From the NCBI RefSeq assembly GCF_036370855.1, contig NC_088128.1, positions 356,899 through 420,898 of the forward strand: a stretch of DNA of 64,000 nucleotides, read 5' to 3'. The first letter of the stretch is position 1. Every line of letters begins with the position of its first letter. The DNA is from Dromaius novaehollandiae (lineage: Eukaryota). Position numbers and translations under genes: made by a program. The notes below the pieces were generated by a model, which saw only the letters and a list, made by a program, of their open reading frames with translations, ran no database searches and was not told where the DNA came from. Below are positions 1,081-45,800 of the stretch, piece by piece.

Positions 1081-1399
1081 CAAGGGTGGGGGGGGCAGGG
1101 CAGCACCCCCCCACCCCAGGGCGCCCCGCACCCCCCCCCCGACTCACCGTGGGGCAACACCGGCTCCCGCTGCCCCCCCGGCCCCGGGGCCGCCCCTTAT
1201 CTAGGGCCTCCCCCCCCCCCCGCTGCGACCTTTCCGCCGACCCCTGGCCTTTTCGGGGGGCTAAAAATAGCCCCCCCCGCCCCCGCCGGCCCCTGACATT
1301 CAGCCGGGGGAGGGGCCCAGCCTGGGCGGCCATTTTGCCCCCCGTCCGCCATTTTGCCCCCCCCCCCCCCCACTGCCGGCAGGCTCTGGGTAACCGTGG

Positions 1400-1830
1400 A
1401 AACGGGCTAGGCCCCGTGGGGGCCTCGTTGGGGGGGTGGTTGCCATGGCGACTGAGGGGGTAGGTACAGGTCACCACGGTGACGGGGTAGTTCCCCTCCT
1501 GCGGTTTCTGGGGTGGTGGTTGCTGTGGCAACAGCCTGCGGGTGTAGGCCTTGGAGCGGGTTGACAGTCACCATGGCAACCAGCCTGCATGGAGGGGTAG
1601 GTCCCGGTTTCCATGGCAACGGGGTAGGCCTGAGACTGTTGTGACAGTCACCACGGCAACCGGGAAGGACCCTTGGTCTCCATGGCAACGGGGTAGGCCG
1701 CAAACCACTGTGACAGTCGCCACGGCAACCGGGAAGGGCCCCCTCGGTCTCCATGGTGACGGGACAGGCCCCGGTTTCCATGGCGACGGGGTTGGCCCTG
1801 AAGAACCCGGGGGGGTAATGAGGTGCCCTC
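1400..1830. repeat. About 68-bp tandem repeat carrying RFX X-box-like palindromic half-sites (CCATGGCAAC / GTTGCCATGGCGAC)
   Basis: GTTGCCATGGCGAC at 1438. GTTGCTGTGGCAAC at 1520. CCATGGCAACGGGGTAGGCC units at 1610, 1680 and 1750. Confidence 0.8.
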
Positions 1831-1884: not shown

Positions 1885-2490
1885 GCGCAGTGGCTGCGCT
1901 GCCCCCCCCTTCGCCAGCGCGGCGGCGCTGAGGTAGGACCCGGAAGCGGCCGTGCAGGTGCCATGGAAACCGCGCGTCGCGGCTTTCTATTGGCCGGGGG
2001 AAGAGGGGGGCGTGGCTCACGCTGTGGGGGGGGGGCTACTTCCGGCGAGGGCCAATCAGCGAGGCGCGCGGCGCGGCGGCGCCCCGCCTCAGGCGCCGGC
2101 CGCCTGCACCAATCACAGACCGCTGCCCTTTCGGCAGACTCTGCCTGGCAACGCGCCCGCGGCGCCGCCTTCCATTGGCTGCCACCGCGGCCAATGGGGA
2201 GGGGAGCTGCTGGCGGGGCGCCGCGCATGCGTGGAGCAGCCGGTGGCGGCGGCGGCCGTTGCCGTGGCAACGCGCGGCGCCCTCGGGGGGGCGGGGCGCG
2301 CAAGCGCATGCAAATATGGGCGAAAATATGCAAATTTATGCTGATTTATGCAAATGAATGTAAATGCGTGGAAACATCGGCGCGTGCTGACTGTATCCGC
2401 ACGGAGGACATGACCCGGCTCCCCCCCACTGACCCCGCCCCCTCCCAGTGGGGGGGGCTTACGAATGAGATGCAAATGTATGCAAATGAG
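1870..2490. promoter_or_regulatory. Dense promoter-like module with 5 CCAAT boxes, 6 octamer (ATGCAAAT) motifs, 3 NRF1 (GCGCATGCG) sites and an X-box palindrome. Target transcript unknown.
   Basis: CCAAT or ATTGG at about 1988, 2051, 2109, 2171 and 2190. ATGCAAAT at 2308, 2328, 2348, 2469 and 2479, plus ATGTAAAT at 2358. tgcgcatgcgca at 1879. gcgcatgcg at 2224. GTTGCCGTGGCAAC at 2258-2271. Confidence 0.5.
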
Positions 2491-2689
2491 GGCGGCCCGT
2501 GGGGGCGGAGCCTGGGAAAGCTCGGGGGGGCACCTGGACACCTGGGTCCCTCGTCCCTGCCTTCATGGGGGGGGCACCCCAAGCCCCTCCCCCTCAAGCC
2601 CCGCCCCCATGCTGCCAGTAGGGCTGGGATGGTATCCCCTCGTGGCCCCGCCCCCTCGTGGCCCCGCCCCCGAGGCCCCGCCCCCTCAT

Positions 2690-3990
2690 CGCTCCCCCAC
2701 CCCCACCTGATTGCAGCTCCCTCTACTCATGACCCCGCCCCCACAAAGCCCCGCCCCCACAAAGCCCCGCCCCCGGAAGCCCCGCCCCCGGAAGCCCCGC
2801 CCCCGTGAAGCCCTGCCCCTGCTGGCCCAGCCCGGCGCTGCCCCCCCCGGGGGGGAATCGCGCCCCCCCAAGCCCCGCCCCCGGCAGCCCCTCCTCCCCG
2901 GACGCCCCGCCCCCGCGAGGCCCCGCCCCAGAAGCAGCGGCAGGTGATGGCGGCCCCCCATGACCCCTCGCCCGGAAGCCCCTCCTCCCTGGAAGCCCCG
3001 CCTCCCCGGCAGCCCCTCCTCCCGGAAGCCCCGCCCCCATGAAGCCCCGCCCCCATTAAGCCCCGCCCCTGCTGGCTGCTGGCCCAGCCTGGCGCTGCCC
3101 CCCCCGGGGGGCAATTGCGCCCCCCGGCAGCCCCGCCCCCCAAGCCCCTCCTCCCCGGCAGCCCCGCCCCCATGAAGCCCCGCCCCCATGAAGCCCCGCC
3201 CCCACGTTGGTGCCGGCAGGGCGGCCCGTCGCTGCCCCCCCCCGGGGGGGGGCAATCGCGCCCCCCACAGGCCCCGCCCCCGGCCGCCCCGCCCCCGGGA
3301 AGCCCCGCCCCGGAAGCCCCCCTTCTGCGAGGCCCCGCAGAAGCGGCCCCCCCCATGACCCCTCCCCTGGCAGCCCCTCCTCCCTGGAAGCCCCACCTCC
3401 CCGGAAGCCCCGCCTCCCCGGATGCCCCGCCCCCATGAAGCCCCGCCCCCAATGAAGCCCCGCCCCCATGAAGCCCCGCCCCCATGAAGCCCCGCCTCAA
3501 CTAAGCCCCGCCCCCATTAAGCCCCGCCCCTGCTGGCTGCCGGCCCAGCCCCGTGCTGCCCCCCCCCCGGGGGGGACTCACGCCCCCCCCCAAGCCCCGC
3601 CCCCGGCAGCCCCTCCTCCCCGGCCGCCCCGCCTCCCCGGAAGCCCCGCCCCCATGAAGCCCCGCCTCCATGAAGCCCCGCCCCTGCTGGCTGCCGGCCC
3701 GGCCCGGCGCTGCCCCCCCCCCCCCCGGTGGGAATCGCCCCTCCGGATGCCGCGCCCCAATGAAGCCCCGCCCCCACTAAGCCCCGCCCCCATGAAGCCC
3801 CGCCCCCATGAAGCCCCGCCCCCACGTTGGTGCCAGCAGGGCGGCTCGTCGCTGCCCCCCCCCAGGGGGGGCAATTGCGCCCCCCACAGGCCCCGCCCCC
3901 GGCCGCCCCGCCTCCCCGGCCGCCCCGCCCCCGGGAAGCCCCGCCCCGGAAGCCCCCCTCCCGCCAGGCCCCGCCCCGGAAGCGGCGGCG
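2690..3990. repeat. GC-box minisatellite (about 14-bp unit GAAGCCCCGCCCCCAT, about 330-bp higher-order period). It holds roughly 80 or more Sp1-type CCCCGCCCC motifs immediately upstream of the TLCD3B ATG.
   Basis: Repeated ccccgcccc cores. The higher-order marker gctggctgctggcccagcctggcgctgcccccccggggggcaattgcgcccc recurs at 3070, 3530, 3690 and 3830. Confidence 0.9.
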
Positions 3991-3994
3991 GGCG

Positions 3995-4131
3995 ATGGCG
4001 GCCCCCCCGGGCGCGCTGCTGGCCGGCGGCGCCGCCTTCTTCCCGGGGCTCTTCGTGGCGGCGCGCGCGGCGCTGCGGCGGCTGCCGGGGCTGCGCTGGC
4101 CCGAGCCCGACGCCGTCATCGTGGCCGCCCG
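3995..4131 (+). CDS. TLCD3B: TLC-domain protein (FAM57/TLCD3 family), coding exon 1: MAAPPGALLAGGAAFFPGLFVAARAALRRLPGLRWPEPDAVIVAA-R(split codon). Donor GTAACG at 4132.
   Basis: ATG at 3995 in GC-rich context. The N-terminus matches my recollection of the FAM57 motif 'GGALFFPGLFA...R'. The exon ends CG|gtaacg (phase 2), and the first G of exon 2 completes Arg. It lies downstream of a GC-box array promoter. Confidence 0.7.
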
Positions 4132-6544: not shown

Positions 6545-6628
6545 GCTGGTGTCCTCGGTGCAGGCCATCATGGCCTCCACGGCCGGTTACATCATCTCCA
6601 GCTCCTGCCACCACGTCATCGATGACCA
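6545..6628 (+). CDS. TLCD3B: TLCD3-family coding exon 2: (R)LVSSVQAIMASTAGYIISSSCHHVIDD-Q(split)
   Basis: Acceptor ccccccccag|G at 6543-6544, preceded by a long (TGTCCCC)n pyrimidine tract. Donor CA|gtgagt at 6629. Phase is consistent with exons 1 and 3. Resembles FAM57 '[28 protein letters not shown]'. Confidence 0.7.
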
Positions 6629-8843: not shown

Positions 8844-9063
8844 GCATTGGCTGGCGGGCGCCTACCCGGCCTTCGCGGTGCCCTACTTCGTCTACGACGT
8901 CTACGCCATGTTCCTCTGCCACTGGCACCGGGGCCGCGTCAAGGGCCACGAGGCCGGGCCACCGCCCTCGCTGCGGGCCGCCGCCGCCGCCTACCTCCGC
9001 AAGGACCTGCTCATGGTGCTCCACCACGCCGCCATGGTGCTCGTCTGCTTCCCCGTGGCCGCC
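8844..9063 (+). CDS. TLCD3B: TLCD3-family coding exon 3 (TLC domain core): (Q)HWLAGAYPAFAVPYFVYDVYAMFLCHWHRGRVKGHEAGPPPSLRAAAAAYLRKDLLMVLHHAAMVLVCFPVAA
   Basis: Acceptor cgcgcag|G at 8842-8843. Donor GCC|gtgagt at 9064. Conserved TLC-domain motifs are present (YDxYAM, HW, LxxHHAxxL). Confidence 0.8.
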
Positions 9064-10790
9064 GTGAGTGGGGACGGGGCGCGGGGACACGTTGGGGACG
9101 TGGGAACGGCTTGGGGACATGGGGACGTCTTGGGGACGTGGGATGGGGGGCCACCACCATGGGGGAGAGGTTCTCATGGTGGCTGCCATGGTTCCCGTTG
9201 GCCATCATGAGTGGGGACAGGGCTTGGGGACACCTTGGGGACATGGGGACATCTTGGGGACGTGGGATGGGGGGCCACCACCTTGGCGGAGATGTTCCCG
9301 TGGTGGCCGCCATGGTGGTTGTCTACTTCTCTTTGGCCACTATGAGTGGGGACAGGGCTTGGGGACACCTTGGGGACATGGAAATGGCCTGGGGACATTT
9401 GGAACATCTTGGGGACGTGGGATGGGGGGCCACCACCATGGGGGAGATGTTCTCGTGGGGGCCGCCATGGTGCTCATCTGCTTCCCTGTGGCCGCCGTGA
9501 GTGGGGACGGGGCTTGGGGACACGTTGGGGACGTGGGAACGGCTTGGGGACATGGGGACGTCTTGGGGACGTGGGATGGGGGGCCACCACCATGACGGAG
9601 ATGTTCTCGTGGGGGCCGCCATGGTGGTTGTCTACTTCTCTTTGGCCATCATGAGTGGGGACAGGGCTTGGGGACACCTTGGGGACGTGGAAACGGCTTG
9701 GGGACATGGGGACGTCTTGGGGACGTGGGATGGGGGGCCACCACCATGGGGGAGAGGTTCTCGTGGTGGCCGCCATGGTGCTCGTCTGCTTCCCCGTGGC
9801 TGCCGTGAGTGGGGACGGGGCTTGGGGACACGTTGGGGACGTGGAAGTGGCTTGGGGACATTGGGAACGTCTTGGGGACGTGGGATGGGGGGCCACCACC
9901 ATGGGGGAGAGGTTCTCATGGTGGCCGCCATGGTTCTCCTTTGGCCACTATGAGTGGGGACAGGGCTTGGGGACACCTTGGGGACATGGGGACGTCTTGG
10001 GGACGTGGGATGGGGGGCCACCACCTTGGCGGGGAGGTTCTCGTGGTGGCCACCATGGTGGTTGTCTACTTCTCTTTGGCCATCATGAGTGGGGACAGGG
10101 CTTGGGGACATCTTGGGGACGTGGAAATGGCTTGGGGACATTGGAACGTCTTGGGGACATGGGATGGGGGCCACCACCTTGGCCGGGAGGTTCTCATGGT
10201 GGCCGCCATGGTGCTCATCTGCTTCCCCGTGGCCGCCGTGAGTGGGGACGGGGCGCGGGGACACGTTGGGGACATGGAAACAGCCTGGGGACATGGGGAC
10301 GTCTTGGGGACACCAAGATGGCTCAGGGGTGGAGGAACGTCTTGGGGACGTGGGATGGGGGGCCACCACCATGGGGGAGATGTTCCCATGGTGGCTGCCA
10401 TGGTTCTCCTTTGGCCACTATGAGTGGGGACGGGGCTTGGGGACACCTTGGGGACATGGAAACGGCTTGGGGACATGGGGATGTCTTGGTGACATGGGAT
10501 GGGGGGCCACCACCATGGGGGAGAGGTTCTCATGGTGGCCGCCATGGTGGTTGTCTACGTCTCTTTGGCTGCCGTGAGTGGGGACGGGGCTTGGGGACAC
10601 CTTGGGGACATGGAAATGGCTTGGGGACATGGGGACGTCTTGGGGACATGGGATGGGGGGCCACCACCATGGCGGAGATGTTCCCATGGTGGCCACCACG
10701 GTTCCCCTTGGCCACCACGAGTGGGGACAGGGATCGGGGCCACCGTGGGGGTTGGGGCCCCCCCGGGTTGGCCCCCCCGGGCCCTCGTGT
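9064..10790. repeat. Array with about 140-bp unit and about 425-bp higher-order repeat in TLCD3B intron 3. Each higher-order copy contains a copy of the last 40 or so nt of exon 3 plus its GTGAGT donor.
   Basis: 'gccgccatggtgctcatctgcttcccYgtggcYgccgtgagtggggacgggg' at 9455-9500, 9765-9812 and 10197-10245. Degenerate copies (ATGAGT) at 9215, 9340, 9645 and 10075. Confidence 0.85.
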
Positions 10791-10832: not shown

Positions 10833-10928
10833 CTGTGGCGCCAGGGCAAGGGCGACTTCTTCCTGGGCTGCCTGCTCATGGCGGAGCTCAGCACCCCCTT
10901 CGTCTGCCTCGGCAAGGTGCTCGTCCTG
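10833..10928 (+). CDS. TLCD3B: TLCD3-family coding exon 4: LWRQGKGDFFLGCLLMAELSTPFVCLGKVLVL
   Basis: Acceptor ccccag|CTG at 10831-10832. Donor CTG|gtgagc at 10929. Phase 0 to 0. Conserved 'GDFFxGC...AELSTPFVxLG' motif. Confidence 0.8.
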
Positions 10929-11971: not shown

Positions 11972-12256
<285 letters not shown>

Positions 12257-12289
12257 CGGCGGGGGGGGGCGGGGGGCACCCTTGGGTGC

Positions 12290-14405: not shown

Positions 14406-15068
14406 CTGCGCCCCCCCCGGGGCCACGCCCCCTCGTCAGGCCACGCCCCCGCCCCGCAGACCCCGCCCCCAAACCCAGGCCACGCCCCCACCCTGCAGGC
14501 CACGCCCCCACCCCACCCCAGCAGCTTCCCCCCTCCAGGAGGAGAGAATGAGCTGCCCCTGGCCCCGCCCCCTGCATAAGCCATGCCCCCCACAAAGCCA
14601 CGCCCACTCCTGGCCACACCCCCTGTGTGAGACCGCCCCCCTTTGAGCCCCGCCCACCCCCCCGGGAGGCCCCGCCCCCCTCATGGAGGTCCCGCCCCCC
14701 CGTGGGAGCCCGACTACCCCCTTGAGGCCCCGCCCACTGCCCCGGGGACCCCGCCCCTCCTCGAGGCCCCGCCCCCATGCGGCCCCGCCCACTCCCCACA
14801 AGGCCCCGCCCCCCAACCGGGAGGCCACCCGCCCCCTCGAGGCCCCGCCCACCCCGTTTTGGACCCCGCCCACTCCCATCAGAGCCCCGCCTTCCTCTAG
14901 ACCCCGCCCCCCACAGCGCCTGCCACAAGCCCCGCCCACCCCTCCCAGGCCACGCCCACCACCCCAGACGCCACGCCCCCGCAGCAGGGGTGGCCCCGCC
15001 CCCGGGAAGCCCCCCGCGCGGTTCCCGCCCCCAGGGGAAGCCCCGCCCCCCCCGGAGGCCCCGCCCAC

Positions 15069-15257
15069 CTGGAGCTCGGGCCCGGCGCGGGCGATGTCGC
15101 GGATGACGTCGGGGCCGAGGGCGGCGGCCACGTCGCGCACGCGCCCCCCCTCCACCTCGGCCAGCGCCTGCGCGTGCGCCGCCTCCGCCTCCGCCCGCGC
15201 CCGCTGCACGCGCAGCTCCTGCGCCTGCGCCCGCTCCCGCCGCGCCAGCTCCGCCTC
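15069..15257 (-). CDS. MVP: MVP coding exon c15: EAELARRERAQAQELRVQRARAEAEAAHAQALAEVEGGRVRDVAAALGPDVIRDIARAGPELQ
   Basis: Acceptor cccgcag|GAG. Donor CAG|gtgggc. Matches the human '...[35 protein letters not shown]' coiled-coil/cap region. Confidence 0.85.
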
Positions 15258-22789: not shown

Positions 22790-24440
22790 GGGCGGGGCCA
22801 CGCTCAGGCCACGCCCCCTCATCCAGGCCACGCCCCCCAGCTGCCTAGACCCGCCCACGCCCCCTTCTTGCTCCTCCCCCCTCCCAGCTCGTCCCCTTTG
22901 CAGCAAGAAGAGCTCCAGCCACCTTGGCCACGCCCCCTCCACCCTGGCCACGCCCCCTCGTCCAGGCCACGCCCCCTCGTCCAGGCCACGCCCCTTCCCT
23001 CAGGCCACGCCCCCTTCCTGCTCCTCCCCTCCCAGCTCGGCCCCTTTGCAGCATGAAGAGCTCCAGGTGCCTTGGCCACGCCCCCTAGGCCACGCCCCCT
23101 ACCACCAGGCCACGCCCCCTCCTCCAGACCATGCCCCCTACTTCAAGGCCACGCCCTCTTCCCCAGGCCACGCCCCCTTCTTGCTCCTCCCCCCTCCCAG
23201 CTCTGCCCCTTTGCAGCAAGAAGACCTCCAGCCACTCTGGCCACGCCCCCCTCCACCCTGGCCACGCCCCCTCCTCCAGACCACGCCCCCAACACAGGCC
23301 CCACCTCTTCCCCAAGCCCCGCCCCCTCCCCAGGCTCCTCCTCCCTTTCTCTCCCCCCAGGAGCACCCCACCCCCATCCCACCCCCAAGCCCCACCCCCA
23401 TGACCAAGCCCCGCCCCCTTTTGGCCAATCCCCGCCCCCTGGGTCCAGGACACGCCCCCTCTGGCCAAGCCCCGCCCCCGGGTCCAGGCCACGCCCCCTC
23501 CCTGACCTCCCCTTCCCCTTCCCTGCCCCCCAGAGCGCCCCATCCCCATCCCACCCCCCAAGCCCCACCCCATGGGACCAGACCCCGCCCCCAGGACCAA
23601 GCCCCGCCCCCCTTTGGCCAAGCCCCGCCCCGGGTCCAGGCCACGCCCCCTCCCTGACCTCCCCTTCCCCTTCCCTGCCCCCCAGAGCACCCCATCCCCA
23701 TCCCACCCCAAGCTCCGCCCCCAGGACCAGGCCCCGCCCCCTCTGGCCAAACCACGCCCCTGGGTCCAGGCCACGCCCCCCTGTGTACAGGCCACGCCCT
23801 CTTTGGCCAAGCCCCGCCCCCTCCCCAGGCTCCTCCTCCCTTTCTCTCCCCCCAGGAGCACCCCACCCCCATCCCACCCCCCCAAGCCCCACCCCCTTTT
23901 GGCCAAGCCCCGCCCCCAGGGTCCAGGTCACGCCCCCTGGGTACAGGCCACGCCCCCTCTGGCCAAGCTCCGCCCCCTCCCAAGGCTCCCCCTCCCCTTC
24001 TCTCCCCCCAGGAGCACCCCACCCCCATCCCACCCCCAAGCCCCACCCCCATGACCAAGCCTCGCCCCCTTTTGGCCAATCCCCGCCCCCTGGGTCCAGG
24101 ACACGCCCCCTCTGGCCAAGCCCCGCCCCCGGGTCCAGGCCACGCCCCTCCCTGACCTCCCTTTCCCCTTCTCTGCCCCCCGGAGCGCCCCATCCCCATC
24201 CCACCCCAAGCTCCGCCCCCAGGACCAAGCCCCGCCCCCCTCTGGACAAACCACGCCCCCTGGGTCCAGGACACGCCCCTGGGTCCAGGACACGCCCCTT
24301 CTGGCCAAGCCCCGCCCCCTCCCCAGGCTCATCCTCCCCTTCTCTGCCCCCCGGAGCGCCCCATCCCCATCCCACCCCCCAAACCCCACCCCTTCTGGCC
24401 AAGCCCCGCCCCCCTCTGGCCAAGCCCCGCCCCCCGGGCC
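22790..24440. repeat. GC-box / GT-box (GGCCACGCCCC, AAGCCCCGCCCC) array with about 330-bp higher-order period in an MVP intron. A similar short array is at 14410-15060.
   Basis: Direct reading. Sp/KLF-type motifs on both strands. Confidence 0.85.
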
Positions 24441-40399: not shown

Positions 40400-43090
40400 A
40401 AGAACAACGAGCAGCCGCTGACCCTATAGGGACTATGGAAAAGCCCCTGCTGCAGAGCGGCTGAGGAGGTGGGGCTATAGGGGCCATGAAGGGCCCATAG
40501 GGGCCATGAGGGGACGCTGTAGGGGCTATAGGGGCTATAGGTACCTGCTGGAGCTGCTCGCCGGGGGAGAGGGGGAAGGGCTCCTGGGCCAGGCGCACCT
40601 CCAGGTCGCCGTGGCGCAGCCGCATAGGGGCTATAGGGACCACAAAGGGGCCATAGGGACCAGAAGAAGTGCTATAGGGGCCATAGGGGCTATAGGTACC
40701 TGCTGGAGCTGCTCGCCGGGGGAGAGGGGGAAGGGCTCCTGGGCCAGGCGCACCTCCAGGTCACCAGGGCGCAACCGCATAGGGGCTATAGGGACCACGA
40801 AGGGGCCATAGGGACCAGAAGAAGTGCTATAGGGGCCACAGGGGCTATAGGTACCTGCTGGAGCTGCTCGCCGGGGGAGAGGGGGAAGGGCTCCTGGGCC
40901 AGGCGCACCTCCAGGTCACCAGGGCGCAGCCGCATAGGGGCTATAGGGACCACAAAGGGGCCATAGGGACCAGAAGAAGTGCTATAGGGGCCATAGGGGC
41001 TATAGGTACCTGCTGGAGCTGCTCGCCGGGGGAGAGGGGGAAGGGCTCCTGGGCCAGGCGCACCTCCAGGTCACCAGGGCACAGCCGCATAGGGGCTATA
41101 GGGATCATGTGGGTGCCATAGGGACTGCGGGGGGAGGCTATAGGGGCCATAGGGGCTATAGGTACCTGCTGGAGCTGCTCGCCGGGGGAGAGGGGGAAGG
41201 GCTCCTGGGCCAGGCGCACCTCCAGGTCACCAGGGCGCAGCCGCATAGGGGCTATAGGGACCACAAAGGGGCCATAGGGACCAGAAGAAGTGCTATAGGG
41301 GCCATAGGGGCTATAGGTACCTGCTGGAGCTGCTCGCCGGGGGAGAGGGGGAAGGGCTCCTGGGCCAGGCGCACCTCGAGGTCACCGTGGCGCAGCCGCA
41401 TAGGGGCTATAGGGACCACGAAGGGGCCGTAGGGACCAGAAGAAGCGCTATAGGTGCTATAGGGGCTATAGGTACCTGCTGGAGCTGCTCGCCGGGGGAG
41501 AGGGGGAAGGGCTCCTGGGCCAGGTGCACCTCCAGGTCACCAGGGCACAGCCGCATAGGGGCTATAGGGACCACGAAGGGGCCGTAGGGACCAGAAGAAG
41601 TGCTATAGGTGCTATAGGGGCTATAGGTACCTGCTGGAGCTGCTCGCCGGGGGAGAGGGGGAAGGGCTCCTGGGCCAGGCGCACCTCCAGGTCACCAGGG
41701 CGCAGCCGCGTAGGGGCTATAGGGACCACGAAGGGGCCATAGGGACCAGAAGAAGTGCTATAGGTGCTATAGGGGCTATAGGTACCTGCTGGAGCTGCTC
41801 GCCGGGGTAGAGGGGGAAGGGCTCCTGGGCCAGGCGCACCTCCAGGCCGCCGTGGCGCAGCCGCATAGGGGCTATAGGGACCACGAAGGGGCCGTAGGGA
41901 CCAGAAGAAGTGCTATAGGGGCCATAGGGGCTATAGGTACCTGCTGGAGCTGCTCGCCGGGGGAGAGGGGGAAGGGCTCCTGGGCCAGGCGCACCTCGAG
42001 GTCACCGTGGCGCAGCCGCATAGGGGCTATAGGGACCACGAAGGGACCATAGGGACCAGAAGAAGTGCTATAGGGGCCATAGGGGCTATAGGTACCTGCT
42101 GGAGCTGCTCGCCGGGGTAGAGGGGGAAGGGCTCCTGGGCCAGGCGCACCTCCAGGTCACCGTGGCGCAGCCGCATAGGGGCTATAGGGACCACGAAGGG
42201 GCCGTAGGGACCAGAAGAAGTGCTATAGGTGCTATAGGGGCTATAGGTACCTGCTGGAGCTGCTCGCCGGGGTAGAGGGGGAAGGGCTCCTGGGCCAGGC
42301 GCACCTCCAGGTCACCAGGGCGCAGCCGCATAGGGGCTATAGGGACCACGAAGGGGCCATAGGGACCAGAAGAAGCGCTATAGGTGCTATAGGGGCTATA
42401 GGTACCTGCTGGAGCTGCTCGCCGGGGGAGAGGGGGAAGGGCTCCTGGGCCAGGCGCACCTCGAGGTCACCGTGGCGCAGCCGCATAGGGGCTATAGGGA
42501 CCACGAAGGGGCCATAGGGACCAGAAGAAGCGCTATAGGTGCTATAGGGGCTATAGGTACCTGCTGGAGCTGCTCGCCGGGAGAGAGGGGGAAGGGCTCC
42601 TGGGCCAGGCACACCTCCAGGTCACCGTGGCGCAGCCGCATAGGGGCTATAGGGACCACGAAGGGGCCATAGGGGACCAGAAGAAGTGCTATAGGGGCCA
42701 CAGGAGCTATAGGTACCTGCTGGAGCTGCTCGCCGGGGGAGAGGGGGAAGGGCTCCTGGGCCAGGCGCACCTCCAGGTCACCGTGGCGCAGCCGCATAGG
42801 GGCTATAGGGACCACGAAGGGGCCGTAGGGACCAGAAGAAGCGCTATAGGTGCTATAGGGGCTATAGGTACCTGCTGGAGCTGCTCGCCGGGGTAGAGGG
42901 GGAAGGGCTCCTGGGCCAGGCGCACCTCGAGGTCACCGTGGCGCAGCCGCATAGGGGCTATAGGGACCACGAAGGGGCCATAGGGACCAGAAGAAGTGCT
43001 ATAGGGGCCATAGGGGCTATAGGTACCTGCTGGAGCTGCTCGCCGGGGTAGAGGGGGAAGGGCTCCTGGGCCAGGCGCACCTCGAGGTCA
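40400..43090. repeat. 135-bp tandem array of about 19 copies in the MVP intron downstream of exon c2. Each unit is the last 85 or so nt of exon c2 ([26 protein letters not shown]) plus the CAGCAG|gtacct donor plus about 50 nt of intron.
   Basis: Unit 'gggctataggtacctgctggagctgctcgccgggggagagggggaagggctcctgggccaggcgcacctccaggtcaccgtggcgcagccgcatagg...'. The authentic exon is at 43027-43222. Confidence 0.9.
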
Positions 43091-43222
43091 CCGTGGCGCA
43101 GCCGGGCCTGGCCGGCGCCGTCGAGCAGCGTCTCCCCGCCGGGCGCCCGGGCGGCCGGGTGCAGCACCACGCAGTAGTGCCGCGCCGGCACCGTCACCAT
43201 GCGCGCCGGCGCGAACACCACC
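43027..43222 (-). CDS. MVP: MVP coding exon c2: (R)[65 protein letters not shown]
   Basis: Acceptor ctatag|G (the repeat motif ctatag serves as the 3' splice site). Donor CAGCAG|gtacct. Matches human '[20 protein letters not shown]...[28 protein letters not shown]'. Confidence 0.85.
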
Positions 43223-43229
43223 CTATAGC

Positions 43230-45800
43230 GGGGTGCTCTATAGGGTCCCGGCGACGGCCCCCGGGCCTCTGGGGAGCACGCCGAGCCCCCCCGGCACCCC
43301 CCGGGGCCCTATAGAGCCCCCACGGCCCTATAGAGCCCCCCAGTACCCCCCACACCGTATGAGCCCCTATGGCCCTATAGGGTCCTCCAGCACCCCCCAC
43401 ACTCCACAGAGCCCCCAGCACCCCCTAGGAACCTGTAGAGGCCCCACGGCCCTATAGAGCCCCCCAGCACCCCCCACACCTACAGAGCCCCCATGGCTCT
43501 ATAGGGTCCTCCAGCACCCCCCACACCCTATAGAGCCCCCATGGCTCTACAGGATCCTCCAGCACCCCCCACACCCTATAGAGCCCTCATGGTCCTATAG
43601 GGTCGCCCAGCACCCCCCACACCCTATAGAGCCCCCAGCACCCCCTATGGGCCTATAGAGACCCCCAGCACCCCTTGGGGCCCTATAGAGCCTCCATAGA
43701 CATATAAAGCCCCCAGCACCCCTACGGCCCTGTAGAGTTCTCCAGCACCCCTATGCACCCTATAGAGCCCCCAGCACCCCCCTAGGGACCTATAGAGCCC
43801 CCCAGCACCCTCCCACGCCCTATAGAGCCCTCATGGTCCTATAGGGTCCCCCAGCACCCCCTACGGCCCTGTAGAGCCCCCATGGTCCTATAGGGTCCCC
43901 CAGCACCCCCCACACCCTATAGAGCCCCCAGCACCCCCTACAGCCCTATAAAGCACGTAGCACCCCCTATGGATCTATAGAGCCTCCCAGCACCCCCTAT
44001 GGACCTGTAGAGCCTCCCAGCACCCCCCACACCCTACAAAGGCCCCAGCACCCCCTAAGGACCTATGAAGCGCCCAGCACACTCCCAGGCCCTATAGAGC
44101 TCTCATGGCCCTATAGAGCCCCCAGCACTCCCTATAGACATATAGAGCATCCCAGCACCCCCTGGAGCCCGATAGAGCCCCCACGGCCCTATAGAGCCCC
44201 CAGAACCCCCTATGGACATACAGAGCGTCCCAGCACCCCCTGAGGCCCTATAGAGCCTCCCAGCACCTCCTATGGACCTATAGAGCCCCCAGCACCCCCC
44301 ACGGACCTGTAGAGCCCCCCAGCACCCCCCACACCCTACAAAGCCCCCAGCACCCCCTATGGGCCTATAGAGCCTCCCAGCACCCCCTGGGGCCCTATAG
44401 AGCCCCCATGGACCCATAGAGCCCCCCATACCCTCTAGGGACCTATAGAGCCCCCCAGCACCCTCCCAGGCCCTATAGAACCCCCACAGCTTTACAGGGC
44501 CCCCAGCACCCGCTAGGGACCTGTAGAGCCCCCCAGCACCCCCCAGGGCCCTATAGAGCCCTCACAACCCTATAGGGCCCCCAGCACCCCCTATGGCCCT
44601 GTAGAGCCCTCCAGCACCCTCCCAGGGCCCTATAGAGCCCCCCACAGTTCTATAAGGCCCCCACCACTCCCTATGGACCTATAGAGCCCCCCAGCACCCC
44701 ACACCCTATAGAGCCTCCACAGCCCTATAGGGCCCCCAGCACCCCCATATGGACCTGTAGAGCCCCCCAGCACCCTCAACACCCTACAGAGCCCCCAGCA
44801 CCCCCTAGGGACCTATAGAGCCTCCCAGCATCCCCCGGGGCCCTATAGAGCCCCCACGGCCCTGCAGAGCCCCCCAGCACCCCCTACACCCTATAGAGCC
44901 CCCAGGACCCCCTATGGACCTATAGAGCTCCCCAGCACCCCTCGGGGCCCTATAGAGCCCCCACAGCCCCCCAGCACCCCCCACCCCCTATAGAGCCCCC
45001 AACACTCTCCTGGCCCTATACAGGCCCTACAGAGCCCCCTAGCACCCCCCATGGCCCTATAGAGCCCCCACAGCCCTACAGGCCCCCCAACAACTCCTAT
45101 AGCCCTACAGAGCCCCCCTAACACCCTCCAGGCTCTATAGGGACCCCACAGGCCTATACAGCCCTCAACACCTCCCACGGCCCTACAGAGCCCCCCAGCA
45201 CCCCCTACGGCCCTATAGAGCCCCCATGACCCTATAGGGTCCCCAACACCCCCCATGGCCCAATAGAGCCCCCACAGCCCTATAGAGACCCCACTCCCCC
45301 ATAGAGACCCCAACCCCCTCCTGGGCCCTATAGGGACCCCACAGCTCCATAGAGCTCCCCAACACCCCCCACAGCCCTATAGGGTGGCCACGGCCCTATA
45401 GAGCCCCCTCGGCCCCACAGAGCCCCCAACCCCCCCCAATGGCATCCCCACAGCCCTATAGAGCCCTATAGGAGCCCCACAGCCCCAAAGAATCCCTTAA
45501 CACCCCCAAAACCCTATAGAAACCCCAAACTCCTATAGAAGTACCTTATCATTATATAGTGTTCTATAGGGCCTACCCTCAGCCCCATAGAGTCCTATAT
45601 GGCCTCCTACAGCCCCCCATGGCCCTATAGAGCCCCCTATAGGGTCCCCCACAGCCCCACAGAGACCTTGCGGACGTCAGCGGGGGGGGGAAACCACGCT
45701 ATAGACCCGGCCCCCCTGTCCCCTATAGGCCTCCCTGTCCCCTATAGACCTCCCCCGTGTCCTAGAGACCTCCCCGTGCCCCATAGCCCCGCCCCGTGCC
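43230..45800. repeat. About 40-bp minisatellite (CCCTATAGAGCCCCCAGCACCCCC) in the MVP intron between c1 and c2
   Basis: Direct reading. The 'ctatag' motif is shared with arrays at 29130-30800, 40400-43090 and 53400-55500. Confidence 0.9.

What the first reader, a model, noticed from the sequence alone, without database searches (positions are those of the whole stretch)
2690..3990. 1.3-kb array of about 80 or more Sp1 GC boxes directly upstream of the TLCD3B start codon
The promoter-proximal region is not a normal CpG island but a pure GC-box minisatellite (CCCCGCCCC every 14-15 bp, with a roughly 330-bp higher-order period). The array ends about 5 bp before the ATG at 3995. It is either an extraordinarily Sp-dense promoter or 5' UTR, or a G-rich structure-forming element (C-rich strand i-motif, G-rich strand G4). 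Copy-number variation here could tune expression.
Basis: seen in the sequence. Interest (0 to 1): 0.55.

Follow-up and report, generated by a model that had tools for sequence, protein, structure and literature searches.

The report
Stuttered GC-box promoter array, bird TLCD3B
The 1.3 kb in front of a bird TLCD3B (ceramide synthase) gene really is a one-way tandem array of about 50 Sp/KLF-type GC boxes, but it is best read as one case of the local repeat "stuttering" that fills avian dot chromosomes, here amplifying the gene's GC-box promoter interval, as has happened independently in other birds.

Summary
The array is real but overstated. Positions 2690-3990 hold 35 exact CCCCGCCCC and about 49 GC-box-like cores, not 80 or more. 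All lie on the + strand. The period is 15-17 bp (mode 16), in runs of 3-11 boxes. Six homologous 61-81-bp spacers and two decayed copies of the gene's own start segment break the runs. One copy keeps ATGGCGGCCCCCC.

The gene call is right: a five-exon, 266-aa TLCD3B with ATG at 3995, head-to-head with ALDOA.

Context lowers the surprise. TRF covers 82% of the 64-kb window, and similar box arrays sit in two MVP introns. This matches the published "sequence stuttering" of avian dot chromosomes.

Comparison raises it again. In six other birds the same interval, between a conserved X-box/CCAAT/NRF1-like/octamer block and the ATG, holds same-orientation Sp/KLF boxes. Length runs from 60 bp to 1.7 kb, with species-specific spacers. 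A turtle has none. Eight neighbouring bird gene starts have 0-1 boxes per kb.

Best reading: a TATA-less GC-box promoter interval inflated by nested tandem duplication, with the TSS probably in the ATG-free last 187 bp. TSS position, factor binding and copy-number variation are untested. Interest is modest.

The parts
2733..3977 (+). Main GC-box array. It holds 47 of the roughly 49 GC-box-like cores counted in 2690-3990, 35 of them exact CCCCGCCCC, all in one orientation, with a 15-17-bp unit. It is organised as three nested super-units: 2733-2978, 2979-3358 and 3359-3994.
2594..2704 (+). Six leading GC or CACCC boxes just upstream of the array. This point matches where the box tract begins in the crane locus.
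2805..2872 (+). Spacer S1, carrying a C8/G7 inverted repeat. Homologous spacers lie at 3070-3130, 3204-3271, 3531-3594, 3685-3765 and 3824-3890.
2930..2978 (+). Pseudo-start copy E1. It keeps ATGGCGGCCCCCC, the first 13 nt of the CDS, with its ATG at 2947 opening a 31-codon ORF. Sequence from the 5' end of exon 1 has been duplicated into the 5' flank.
3312..3358 (+). Pseudo-start copy E2, a degenerate version with an internal deletion that removes the ATGG.
3811..3994 (+). The ATG-free stretch just before the start codon, containing the last spacer and five boxes. This is the most likely TSS zone, by inference only.
3995..4131 (+). TLCD3B exon 1, with the start codon at 3995. The remaining exons are 6545-6628, 8844-9063, 10833-10928 and 11993-12257. 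All introns are GT-AG, and the protein is 266 aa with a TLC domain.
1940..2520 (+). Conserved upstream regulatory block. It contains X-box-like CCATGGCAAC, CCAAT boxes, an NRF1-like GCGCATGCG, GCCGTTGCCGTGGCAACGCG, octamers TATGCAAATGAG and GGGCGGAGCC. It aligns with crane, falcon and pigeon and sits just upstream of the array in each.
1190..1270 (-). ALDOA muscle-promoter-like block, with a TATA-like CCCTTATCTAGGG and a MEF2-like CTAAAAATAG. It is conserved with crane and falcon, where ALDOA is annotated on the opposite strand. This shows the head-to-head arrangement of ALDOA and TLCD3B.

Best explanation
The element is the GC-box (Sp/KLF-site) part of the TATA-less CpG-island promoter of a bird TLCD3B gene. 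Nested local tandem duplication has inflated it from a handful of boxes to about 1.3 kb.

Shown:
- Growth was by duplication of local sequence. The 100-140 bp before the ATG, plus the first 13 nt of the coding sequence, recur twice upstream.
- Six spacers are homologous to one another.
- 16-bp box units are amplified within the blocks.
- The same interval is a box array of different length and unit make-up in other birds.

Inferred:
- The copy attached to the rest of exon 1 is the working promoter.
- Transcription probably starts in the last 187 bp, which carry five boxes and no ATG.
- Sp/KLF factors, and ETS factors on the nine CCGGAAG units, probably bind the tract and keep it open and unmethylated.
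- The upstream copies are largely redundant 'echoes' that add binding sites and push the conserved X-box/CCAAT/octamer block about 1.5 kb away.
- Array length is tolerated rather than tuned.
- The driver is probably the GC-rich, G4-prone, recombination-active environment of avian dot chromosomes (published as 'sequence stuttering').
For: Array structure and local origin:
- Unit parse and spacing.
- Box excess over local shuffles, 35 against 6.2 +/- 2.4.
- The start segment and spacers are duplicated.

Gene and position:
- Gene model, TLC domain and bird TLCD3B homologues.
- GC content 0.80 and CpG observed/expected 0.64.
- No TATA is visible in the last 300 bp.
- 18 upstream ATGs in the array, but none in the last 187 bp.

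Local context:
- 82% of the window is tandem repeat.
- Exon-fragment copies occur in TLCD3B intron 3 and in MVP introns.
- Synteny with ALDOA, which PMC12954441 places on chicken dot chromosome 38.
- The same paper defines sequence and exon stuttering and says intergenic DNA is also affected.

Comparative data:
- Crane 300 bp, falcon 60 bp, owlet-nightjar more than 1.1 kb, cuckoo 1.7 kb, pigeon 560 bp, budgerigar 935 bp.
- All boxes have the same orientation, and spacers differ between species.
- The flanking block is conserved.
- The turtle has no boxes.
- Eight neighbouring bird gene starts have 0-1 boxes per kb, against 6-38 for TLCD3B.

G4 polarity:
- G4 motifs lie on the template strand only.
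- This matches the reported polarity and hypomethylation of promoter and 5'UTR G4s on bird dot chromosomes (bioRxiv 10.1101/2025.10.17.683159).
Against: - No transcript, CAGE, binding, methylation or population data could be consulted. TSS position, Sp/KLF occupancy and neutrality of length are therefore all inferences.
- Similar box arrays in two MVP introns show that such arrays can exist with no promoter role.
- A box tract that persists in one orientation in all seven birds could reflect selection on the tract itself rather than mere tolerance.
- The conserved upstream block could itself hold the TSS.
Confidence: 0.6

Rival explanations
1. The long, polar Sp/KLF-box and G4 tract is itself selected. 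It could be a high-capacity factor platform. It could be a barrier between the muscle-specific ALDOA promoter and the TLCD3B promoter 1-3 kb away. Or it could be an expression-tuning VNTR like INS-ILPR. On this reading array length and orientation matter.
For: - A box tract fills the same interval, in the same orientation, in all seven birds despite complete turnover of spacers and unit length.
- Eight neighbouring gene starts lack such tracts.
- The CpG inside the core is mostly retained. 35 of about 49 cores are intact, and only about three show CpG-decay-type variants.
- The head-to-head ALDOA promoter is close by.
Against: - Length varies about 30-fold among species, and the falcon manages with 60 bp.
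- Comparable arrays sit in MVP introns.
- Conservation of the core is partly circular, because units were recognised by their core.
- Shared orientation can simply be inherited from ancestral seed boxes.
- There are no functional data.
Confidence: 0.15
2. The array is transcribed rather than promoter DNA. On this reading the TSS lies in the conserved upstream block. The array would then be a long GC-rich 5'UTR, or a 5'UTR intron removed using one of the many C-tract+AG sites in the units.
For: - The only deeply conserved non-coding sequence is the block upstream of the array.
- Arrays in crane, owlet-nightjar and pigeon contain no ATG at all.
- Every unit ends in AG after a C-rich tract, for example CCCGCCAG|G at 3960-3967.
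- G4s on the template strand are the reported 5'UTR pattern in birds.
Against: - In the window the array has 18 upstream ATGs, five of them opening ORFs that overlap the main ATG out of frame.
- The octamer motifs themselves contain ATG and lie downstream of the CCAAT/NRF1-like part of the block, so they look like upstream promoter elements.
- No conserved splice donor is seen in the block.
- ATG absence in the other species is only mild depletion at 75-85% GC.
Confidence: 0.15
3. The array's size or internal order is an assembly artefact of a hard-to-sequence GC-rich repeat.
For: - Non-B-rich dot-chromosome sequence has reduced long-read depth (bioRxiv 10.1101/2025.10.17.683159).
- The swan and chicken assemblies lack TLCD3B exons 1-2 altogether.
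Against: - Units are diverged and structured into nested blocks with indels, not collapsed identical copies.
- Five independent assemblies of other birds (crane, owlet-nightjar, cuckoo, pigeon, budgerigar) show arrays of 300 bp or more at the same place.
Confidence: 0.05

Closest known systems
Sequence stuttering / exon stuttering on avian dot chromosomes (PMC12954441)
   Same: - Imperfect local tandem expansions of tens to hundreds of bp, arising from originally unique local sequence.
- Copies of an adjacent exon fragment sit inside the repeats.
- The setting is GC-rich, saturated with simple repeats and gene-dense, next to ALDOA.
- The same window shows classic intronic cases in TLCD3B intron 3 and in MVP.
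   Different: - The published screen and description concern introns. The word 'promoter' does not occur in that paper, and intergenic DNA is mentioned only in passing.
- Here the expanded sequence is the 5' flank plus the first 13 nt of the CDS.
- The amplified unit is a transcription-factor site.
- The same interval has expanded independently in several bird orders.
CSTB (EPM1) dodecamer repeat CCCCGCCCCGCG in the promoter/5'UTR (PMC11006399)
   Same: - A C4GC4-type GC-rich unit is repeated in tandem just 5' of a gene.
- The expanded tract is not hypermethylated, according to the review.
- Sequence-wise it is the closest known repeat.
   Different: - In humans the repeat is 2-3 copies normally, and 30-75 or more copies reduce transcription and cause disease.
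- The human repeat is a pure 12-mer. Here there are about 50 units of 16 bp with higher-order structure.
- Here the array is present in a reference assembly of an intact, conserved gene, with no evidence of silencing.
Insulin-linked polymorphic region, INS VNTR (PMC11336075; PMC2691825)
   Same: - A 14-bp G/C-tract minisatellite in a promoter.
- It forms G4 and i-motif structures.
- Copy number and variants influence transcription.
- Unit size and overall length are similar.
   Different: - The unit is ACAGGGGTGTGGGG, not an Sp1 GC box.
- It lies 363 bp upstream of the TSS rather than abutting the start codon.
- Its polymorphism and function are demonstrated experimentally. Here neither is.
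SV40 21-bp repeats and other multi-GC-box TATA-less promoters (textbook knowledge, not checked here)
   Same: Tandem GGGGCGGGGC-type Sp1 sites just upstream of the start sites act together as the core of the promoter.
   Different: Those promoters have about 6 boxes in about 60 bp, comparable to the falcon version. The window has about 50 boxes over 1.3 kb.

Membership tests
Avian dot-chromosome sequence stuttering | Lies in GC-rich euchromatin saturated with simple repeats on a dot chromosome | tested here: met
   TRF covers 82% of the window, and GC is 0.57-0.77 per 2 kb. The locus is adjacent to ALDOA, which PMC12954441 places on chicken chromosome 38. The chromosome identity of the window itself is inferred.
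Avian dot-chromosome sequence stuttering | Imperfect tandem repeats of local origin, less organised than microsatellites | tested here: met
   TRF gives period 16 with 66% matches. Nested blocks measure 246, 380 and 650 bp.
Avian dot-chromosome sequence stuttering | Partial copies of the adjacent exon inside the repeat (exon stuttering) | tested here: met
   ATGGCGGCCCCCC and its 5' context recur at 2935-2960, with a degenerate copy at 3312-3358.
Avian dot-chromosome sequence stuttering | Located in an intron | tested here: not met
   The array lies 5' of the first coding exon, and no upstream alternative exon was found. The paper notes that intergenic DNA is also affected.
Avian dot-chromosome sequence stuttering | Exceptional length variation within a population | not testable with these tools
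   Only one haplotype is available. Between-species variation is 60 bp to 1.7 kb.
GC-box (Sp/KLF) TATA-less CpG-island promoter | Consensus GC boxes (GGGGCGGGGC) clustered close to the start of the gene | tested here: met
   35 exact cores, against 6.2 expected locally. Five boxes lie within 105 bp of the ATG.
GC-box (Sp/KLF) TATA-less CpG-island promoter | CpG-island composition | tested here: met
   GC 0.80 and CpG observed/expected 0.64 over 1.3-1.4 kb.
GC-box (Sp/KLF) TATA-less CpG-island promoter | TSS within or just downstream of the boxes | not testable with these tools
   No transcript data were available. The only indirect support is the 187-bp ATG-free stretch before the ATG, against 18 ATGs further upstream.
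GC-box (Sp/KLF) TATA-less CpG-island promoter | Occupancy by Sp/KLF proteins | not testable with these tools
   This needs ChIP or CUT&RUN.
Functional promoter VNTR (INS-ILPR / CSTB type) | Copy-number polymorphism with allele-dependent expression | not testable with these tools
   No population or expression data were available.
Functional promoter VNTR (INS-ILPR / CSTB type) | G4 or i-motif-capable tandem units | tested here: inconclusive
   26 canonical G4 motifs lie on the template strand and none on the coding strand. Shuffles of the same composition give 17.5 +/- 2.3. Folding was not tested.
5' UTR of the productive mRNA (whole array) | Scanning-compatible leader with few or no upstream ATGs overlapping the main ORF | tested here: not met
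   There are 18 upstream ATGs in 2690-3994. Those at 3468, 3654, 3747, 3792 and 3808 open ORFs that run out of frame past 3995.

The most novel reading that the evidence does not exclude
Birds may have kept a long, strictly one-orientation Sp/KLF-box and template-strand G4 tract at the TLCD3B 5' end for most of avian history. The tract would be continually rebuilt by stuttering because it is itself needed. It could act as a barrier between the muscle ALDOA promoter and the TLCD3B promoter. It could provide redundancy against the very high local mutation and instability. Or it could be a heritable expression dial. That would make 'promoter stuttering' a functional class of rapidly evolving cis-regulatory element on dot chromosomes.
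Probability: 0.15. Interest if true: 0.6.

Novelty: new member of a known kind. Interest (0 to 1): 0.35.

Why it matters
TLCD3B is a non-canonical ceramide synthase needed for retinal function in mice (PMC8934561, PMC10387349). It lies in the 16p11.2 syntenic group. In birds that group sits in some of the hardest-to-assemble DNA.

This locus shows that the repeat instability described for dot-chromosome introns also reshapes a promoter. It multiplies transcription-factor sites: GC boxes here, with CCAAT boxes co-amplified in crane and budgerigar. It also moves conserved upstream elements 0.1 to 1.7 kb away from the gene.

If array length varies within species and affects expression, such promoters would be a ready source of regulatory variation. 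If it does not, they are a natural experiment on how much spacing and site multiplicity a promoter can tolerate.

For annotation, the finding helps explain why exon 1 of this gene is missing or mis-called in several of the bird gene models examined.

Tried and rejected
- Rfam scan of the whole window at gathering thresholds found nothing, so there is no known structured RNA in or near the array.
- I searched for an alternative upstream first exon like the ones in turtle and alligator. None was found in the window or in any bird locus. The array is therefore not obviously intronic to a longer isoform.
- Swan (L006) and chicken (L008) loci were fetched, but both assemblies lack exons 1-2 and were uninformative for the promoter.
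- Zebra finch, duck and alligator proteins (P0024, P0030, P0015) are not on record as genes. No crocodilian outgroup was obtained.
- Hairpin folding of the C/G inverted repeats in the spacers gave -11.7 to -13.7 kcal/mol. Only one of three was clearly better than shuffles, with z-scores of -0.9, -1.1 and -3.0. This is not a distinctive structural signal.
- G4 motif density exceeds shuffles only modestly, so it does not separate structure from composition.
- I planned a six-frame Pfam annotation of the whole window and dropped it as too costly. ALDOA and MVP were placed by synteny and by tblastn with remembered human sequences used only as leads. TLCD3B was then confirmed independently.
- The bacterial promoter/terminator scanner was not used, because it does not apply to a vertebrate locus.
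- I considered an N-terminal extension of the ORF and rejected it. All in-frame upstream ATGs terminate before 3995.

Full report
**1. What is in the sequence**

Window 2594-3977 is a C-rich tract on the + strand (C 56%, GC 0.80), built from units of the form (spacer of 5-7 nt) + GCCCCGCCCC(C).

- There are 35 exact CCCCGCCCC and 39 CCGCCC hexamers.
- There are about 49 cores if CCCCTCCTCCC (6), CCCCGCCTCC (6) and CCCCACC (2) variants are counted.
- Every one is on the + strand.
- Centre-to-centre spacing inside runs is 15-17 bp, mode 16. TRF reports period 16, 67.7 copies and 66% matches.
- The count exceeds chance. 1000 dinucleotide shuffles of the region itself give 6.2 +/- 2.4, with a maximum of 16.
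- The whole window has 91 matches on both strands, against 20.7 +/- 4.1 in shuffles.

The figure of '80 or more', the '14-15 bp' period and the word 'pure' are therefore overstated. The last box ends at 3977, 17 bp before the ATG rather than 5 bp.

**2. Internal anatomy**

The array is not uniform. Runs of 3-11 boxes are separated by two kinds of element.
- Six spacers of 61-81 bp, mutually homologous, each with a C8-14/G2-9 inverted repeat. They lie at 2805, 3070, 3204, 3531, 3685 and 3824.
- Two segments, E1 (2930-2978) and E2 (3312-3358), that align with the sequence around the true start codon.

E1 keeps ATGGCGGCCCCCC, which is identical to the first 13 nt of the coding sequence. E2 has lost the ATGG through a small deletion.

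The array therefore consists of three nested super-units of 246, 380 and 650 bp, each ending in a copy of the start segment. Only the last copy is joined to the rest of exon 1.

K-mer lags agree with this parse. The strongest are at 16, then 620-636, then 296-340 and 154.

**3. The gene and its neighbours**

- The ATG at 3995 opens a five-exon gene: 3995-4131, 6545-6628, 8844-9063, 10833-10928 and 11993-12257. All introns are GT-AG, and the product is 266 aa.
- The protein has a TLC domain (PF03798, E = 1e-30).
- Its best matches are bird 'ceramide synthase/FAM57B' (TLCD3B) proteins. Full-length crane gives 87%. Partial duck and tinamou models give 91%.
- In crane, falcon and budgerigar, ALDOA lies upstream on the opposite strand.
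- The window carries the orthologous ALDOA TATA-like/MEF2-like block at about 1190-1270.
- Downstream, MVP occupies 14.3-45.95 kb on the minus strand, tail-to-tail with TLCD3B as in the turtle.

**4. Context: almost everything here is a minisatellite**

- TRF covers 82% of the 64-kb window.
- Fragments of TLCD3B exon 3 recur in intron 3, at 9449-9499 and 10175-10240. The same is seen in the chicken and swan loci.
- An MVP exon fragment (aa 81-120) recurs about 17 times between 40.5 and 43.0 kb.
- Two further arrays rich in GC or CACGCC boxes, at 14440-15080 and 23200-24440, lie inside MVP introns.

This is the picture published as 'sequence stuttering' and 'exon stuttering' on avian dot chromosomes. 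That paper lists ALDOA on chicken chromosome 38 and reports very large allele-length differences in such regions (PMC12954441).

It deals with introns and never uses the word promoter, but it notes that intergenic DNA is affected as well. Being a tandem array is therefore the local norm. What is particular here is what got amplified and where.

**5. Comparative evidence**

I fetched the orthologous locus from six other birds with exon 1 assembled, and from a turtle.

| Species (locus) | Box tract before the ATG | Unit features |
|---|---|---|
| Crane (L001) | ~300 bp | GAGG-GC box alternating with ACCATTGGA, a CCAAT box |
| Falcon (L002) | ~60 bp, 4-5 boxes | short cluster |
| Owlet-nightjar (L003) | >1.1 kb, runs off the contig | CCACGCCCC and CCCCGCCCC units, ~440-bp higher order |
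| Cuckoo (L004) | 1.7 kb | ~23-bp units |
| Pigeon (L005) | ~560 bp | followed by two other short arrays |
| Budgerigar (L009) | ~935 bp | CCACGCCCC plus CCGCCCAATCAGG |
| Turtle (L007) | none | 1 CCCCGCCCC in 3 kb; carries an unrelated 60-bp repeat |

- In all seven birds (the six above plus the window species) the interval just before the ATG holds Sp/KLF-type boxes.
- Every box in every bird array has the same orientation, C-rich on the coding strand. Spacers are species-specific.
- Just upstream of each array lies a block that aligns across window, crane, falcon and pigeon. The budgerigar shows the same motifs by eye.
- That block contains X-box-like CCATGGCAAC, CCAAT boxes, an NRF1-like GCGCATGCG, GCCGTTGCCGTGGCGACGCG, two TATGCAAATGAG octamers and GGGCGGAGC.
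- As a rough control, the 1 kb upstream of eight neighbouring bird CDS starts in the fetched loci has 0-1 boxes. TLCD3B has 6-38. Some of those control starts may be preceded by 5'UTR introns.

I read this as an ancestral avian cluster of GC boxes between a constrained regulatory block and the ATG. That cluster has expanded independently, and to very different extents, in different lineages.

**6. Where transcription probably starts**

No transcript data were available, so this section is inference.
- The array holds 18 ATGs, against about 3 expected from base composition, because of the CATGAAG unit.
- Those at 3468, 3654, 3747, 3792 and 3808 open ORFs that run out of frame through the main ATG. 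A leader spanning the array would be a very poor template for TLCD3B translation.
- The last 187 bp before the ATG contain no ATG.
- The start codon has a good context (G at -3, G at +4).
- The octamers in the conserved block contain ATG and look like upstream elements.

I therefore place the productive TSS in about 3811-3994. In some other species the arrays are ATG-free. At 75-85% GC that is only mild depletion, so a 5'UTR or 5'UTR-intron arrangement cannot be excluded.

**7. Structure-forming potential**

- The template strand carries 26 canonical G4 motifs covering 56% of the array. The coding strand carries none.
- Shuffles of the same composition already give 17.5 +/- 2.3.
- The polarity matches the reported excess of template-strand, unmethylated G4s in 5'UTRs of bird genes, a strand pattern reported as most prominent on dot chromosomes (bioRxiv 10.1101/2025.10.17.683159).
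- The spacer inverted repeats fold to -11.7 to -13.7 kcal/mol. Only one of three is clearly better than shuffles.

The potential is real but follows mostly from composition. It fits better as a plausible cause of the instability than as a demonstrated function.

**8. Explanation and rivals**

- **Best reading (0.6).** A TATA-less Sp/KLF (plus ETS-like CCGGAAG) CpG-island promoter interval inflated by stuttering. The proximal copy works as the promoter. The upstream copies are redundant echoes whose number is tolerated.
- **Rival 1 (0.15).** The tract itself is selected as a platform, barrier or tuning VNTR.
- **Rival 2 (0.15).** The array is transcribed as a 5'UTR or 5'UTR intron, from a TSS in the conserved block.
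- **Rival 3 (0.05).** The array is mis-sized by assembly.

The evidence for and against each, and the tests that would refute them, are given in the structured fields.

**9. Comparison with known systems**

- By mechanism of origin the array meets the tested criteria for dot-chromosome sequence and exon stuttering, apart from not being intronic.
- By sequence its nearest relative is the CSTB dodecamer CCCCGCCCCGCG. There, going from 2-3 to 30 or more copies reduces transcription (PMC11006399).
- By architecture it resembles the insulin ILPR minisatellite (PMC11336075).
- The multi-GC-box viral and housekeeping promoters are a further comparison, from textbook knowledge that was not checked here.
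- Membership in the 'functional VNTR' class cannot be claimed, because polymorphism and allele effects are untested.

**10. Verdict**

The gene call is right.

The element is a new example of a known kind, and I score it 0.35. What is new is that stuttering here acts on a promoter's factor-binding sites, and that it does so recurrently at the same gene across bird orders.

Noticed in passing
window 40506-42952 (minus strand): About 17 tandem copies, roughly 155 bp apart, of an MVP exon fragment (human aa 81-120 equivalent) lie next to the real exon near 43009-43239. This is a striking case of exon stuttering.
   Followed up: partly
window 9449-9499 and 10175-10240; L008 4423-4494 and 5371-5421; L006 10958-11035 and 11429-11494: Copies of the 3' end of TLCD3B exon 3 (VLHHAAMVLVCFPVA...) lie inside intron 3 in the window species, and also in chicken and swan. 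The duplication is either old or recurrent.
   Followed up: partly
window 14440-15080 and 23200-24440: Two further arrays rich in GC and CACGCC boxes, C-rich on the + strand, lie inside MVP introns, one of them between the last two coding exons found. Box-type minisatellites are therefore not restricted to promoters here.
   Followed up: yes
window 1400-1800: About ten RFX X-box-like motifs (CCATGGCAAC, CCACGGCAAC) occur, partly as a 69-bp tandem repeat. Crane and falcon have only single copies at the corresponding places. This is another factor-binding-site motif that appears to have been amplified.
   Followed up: partly
window 2300-2365 and 2465-2492: There is a cluster of octamer/POU-type sites (ATGCAAAT three times, plus ATGTAAAT and TATGCTGAT variants, then two ATGCAAATG). 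The second pair is conserved as TATGCAAATGAG in crane, falcon and pigeon. ATGAATATTCAT-like motifs lie at 1835-1870. They may be neural POU-factor input to TLCD3B, but this is from memory of motif consensus only.
   Followed up: partly
window 1190-1270 (minus strand): A TATA-like CCCTTATCTAGGG and a MEF2-like CTAAAAATAG are conserved with crane and falcon upstream of ALDOA. This is probably the ALDOA muscle promoter, 2.8 kb from the TLCD3B ATG.
   Followed up: partly
whole window: Tandem Repeats Finder covers 82% of the 64 kb. Nearly all non-exonic sequence is minisatellite, and different unit families are confined to individual introns.
   Followed up: yes
L005 (Caloenas) 985-1415: In the pigeon, two other arrays, (GGGGTCCCCGCTCC)n and (GCCGCC)n, sit between the GC-box array and exon 1. 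No ATG precedes the conserved LAAGLLFFPGLF, so the annotated start at 1374 is an internal methionine. The true start is unclear or mis-assembled.
   Followed up: no
L006 (Cygnus olor), L008 (Gallus gallus GRCg7b unplaced contig): These assemblies hold TLCD3B from exon 3 onwards only. In the swan the upstream context is unrelated (olfactory receptor, CCDC81), which suggests a gap or misjoin at the GC-rich 5' end of the gene.
   Followed up: no
L007 (Mauremys) 10001-10126 and 12115-12240: The turtle has two alternative, paralogous first coding exons 2.1 kb apart. The birds examined have only one. It resembles both the turtle's canonical exon 1 and the alligator N-terminal peptide (P0015) that I treated as the alternative type.
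   Followed up: partly
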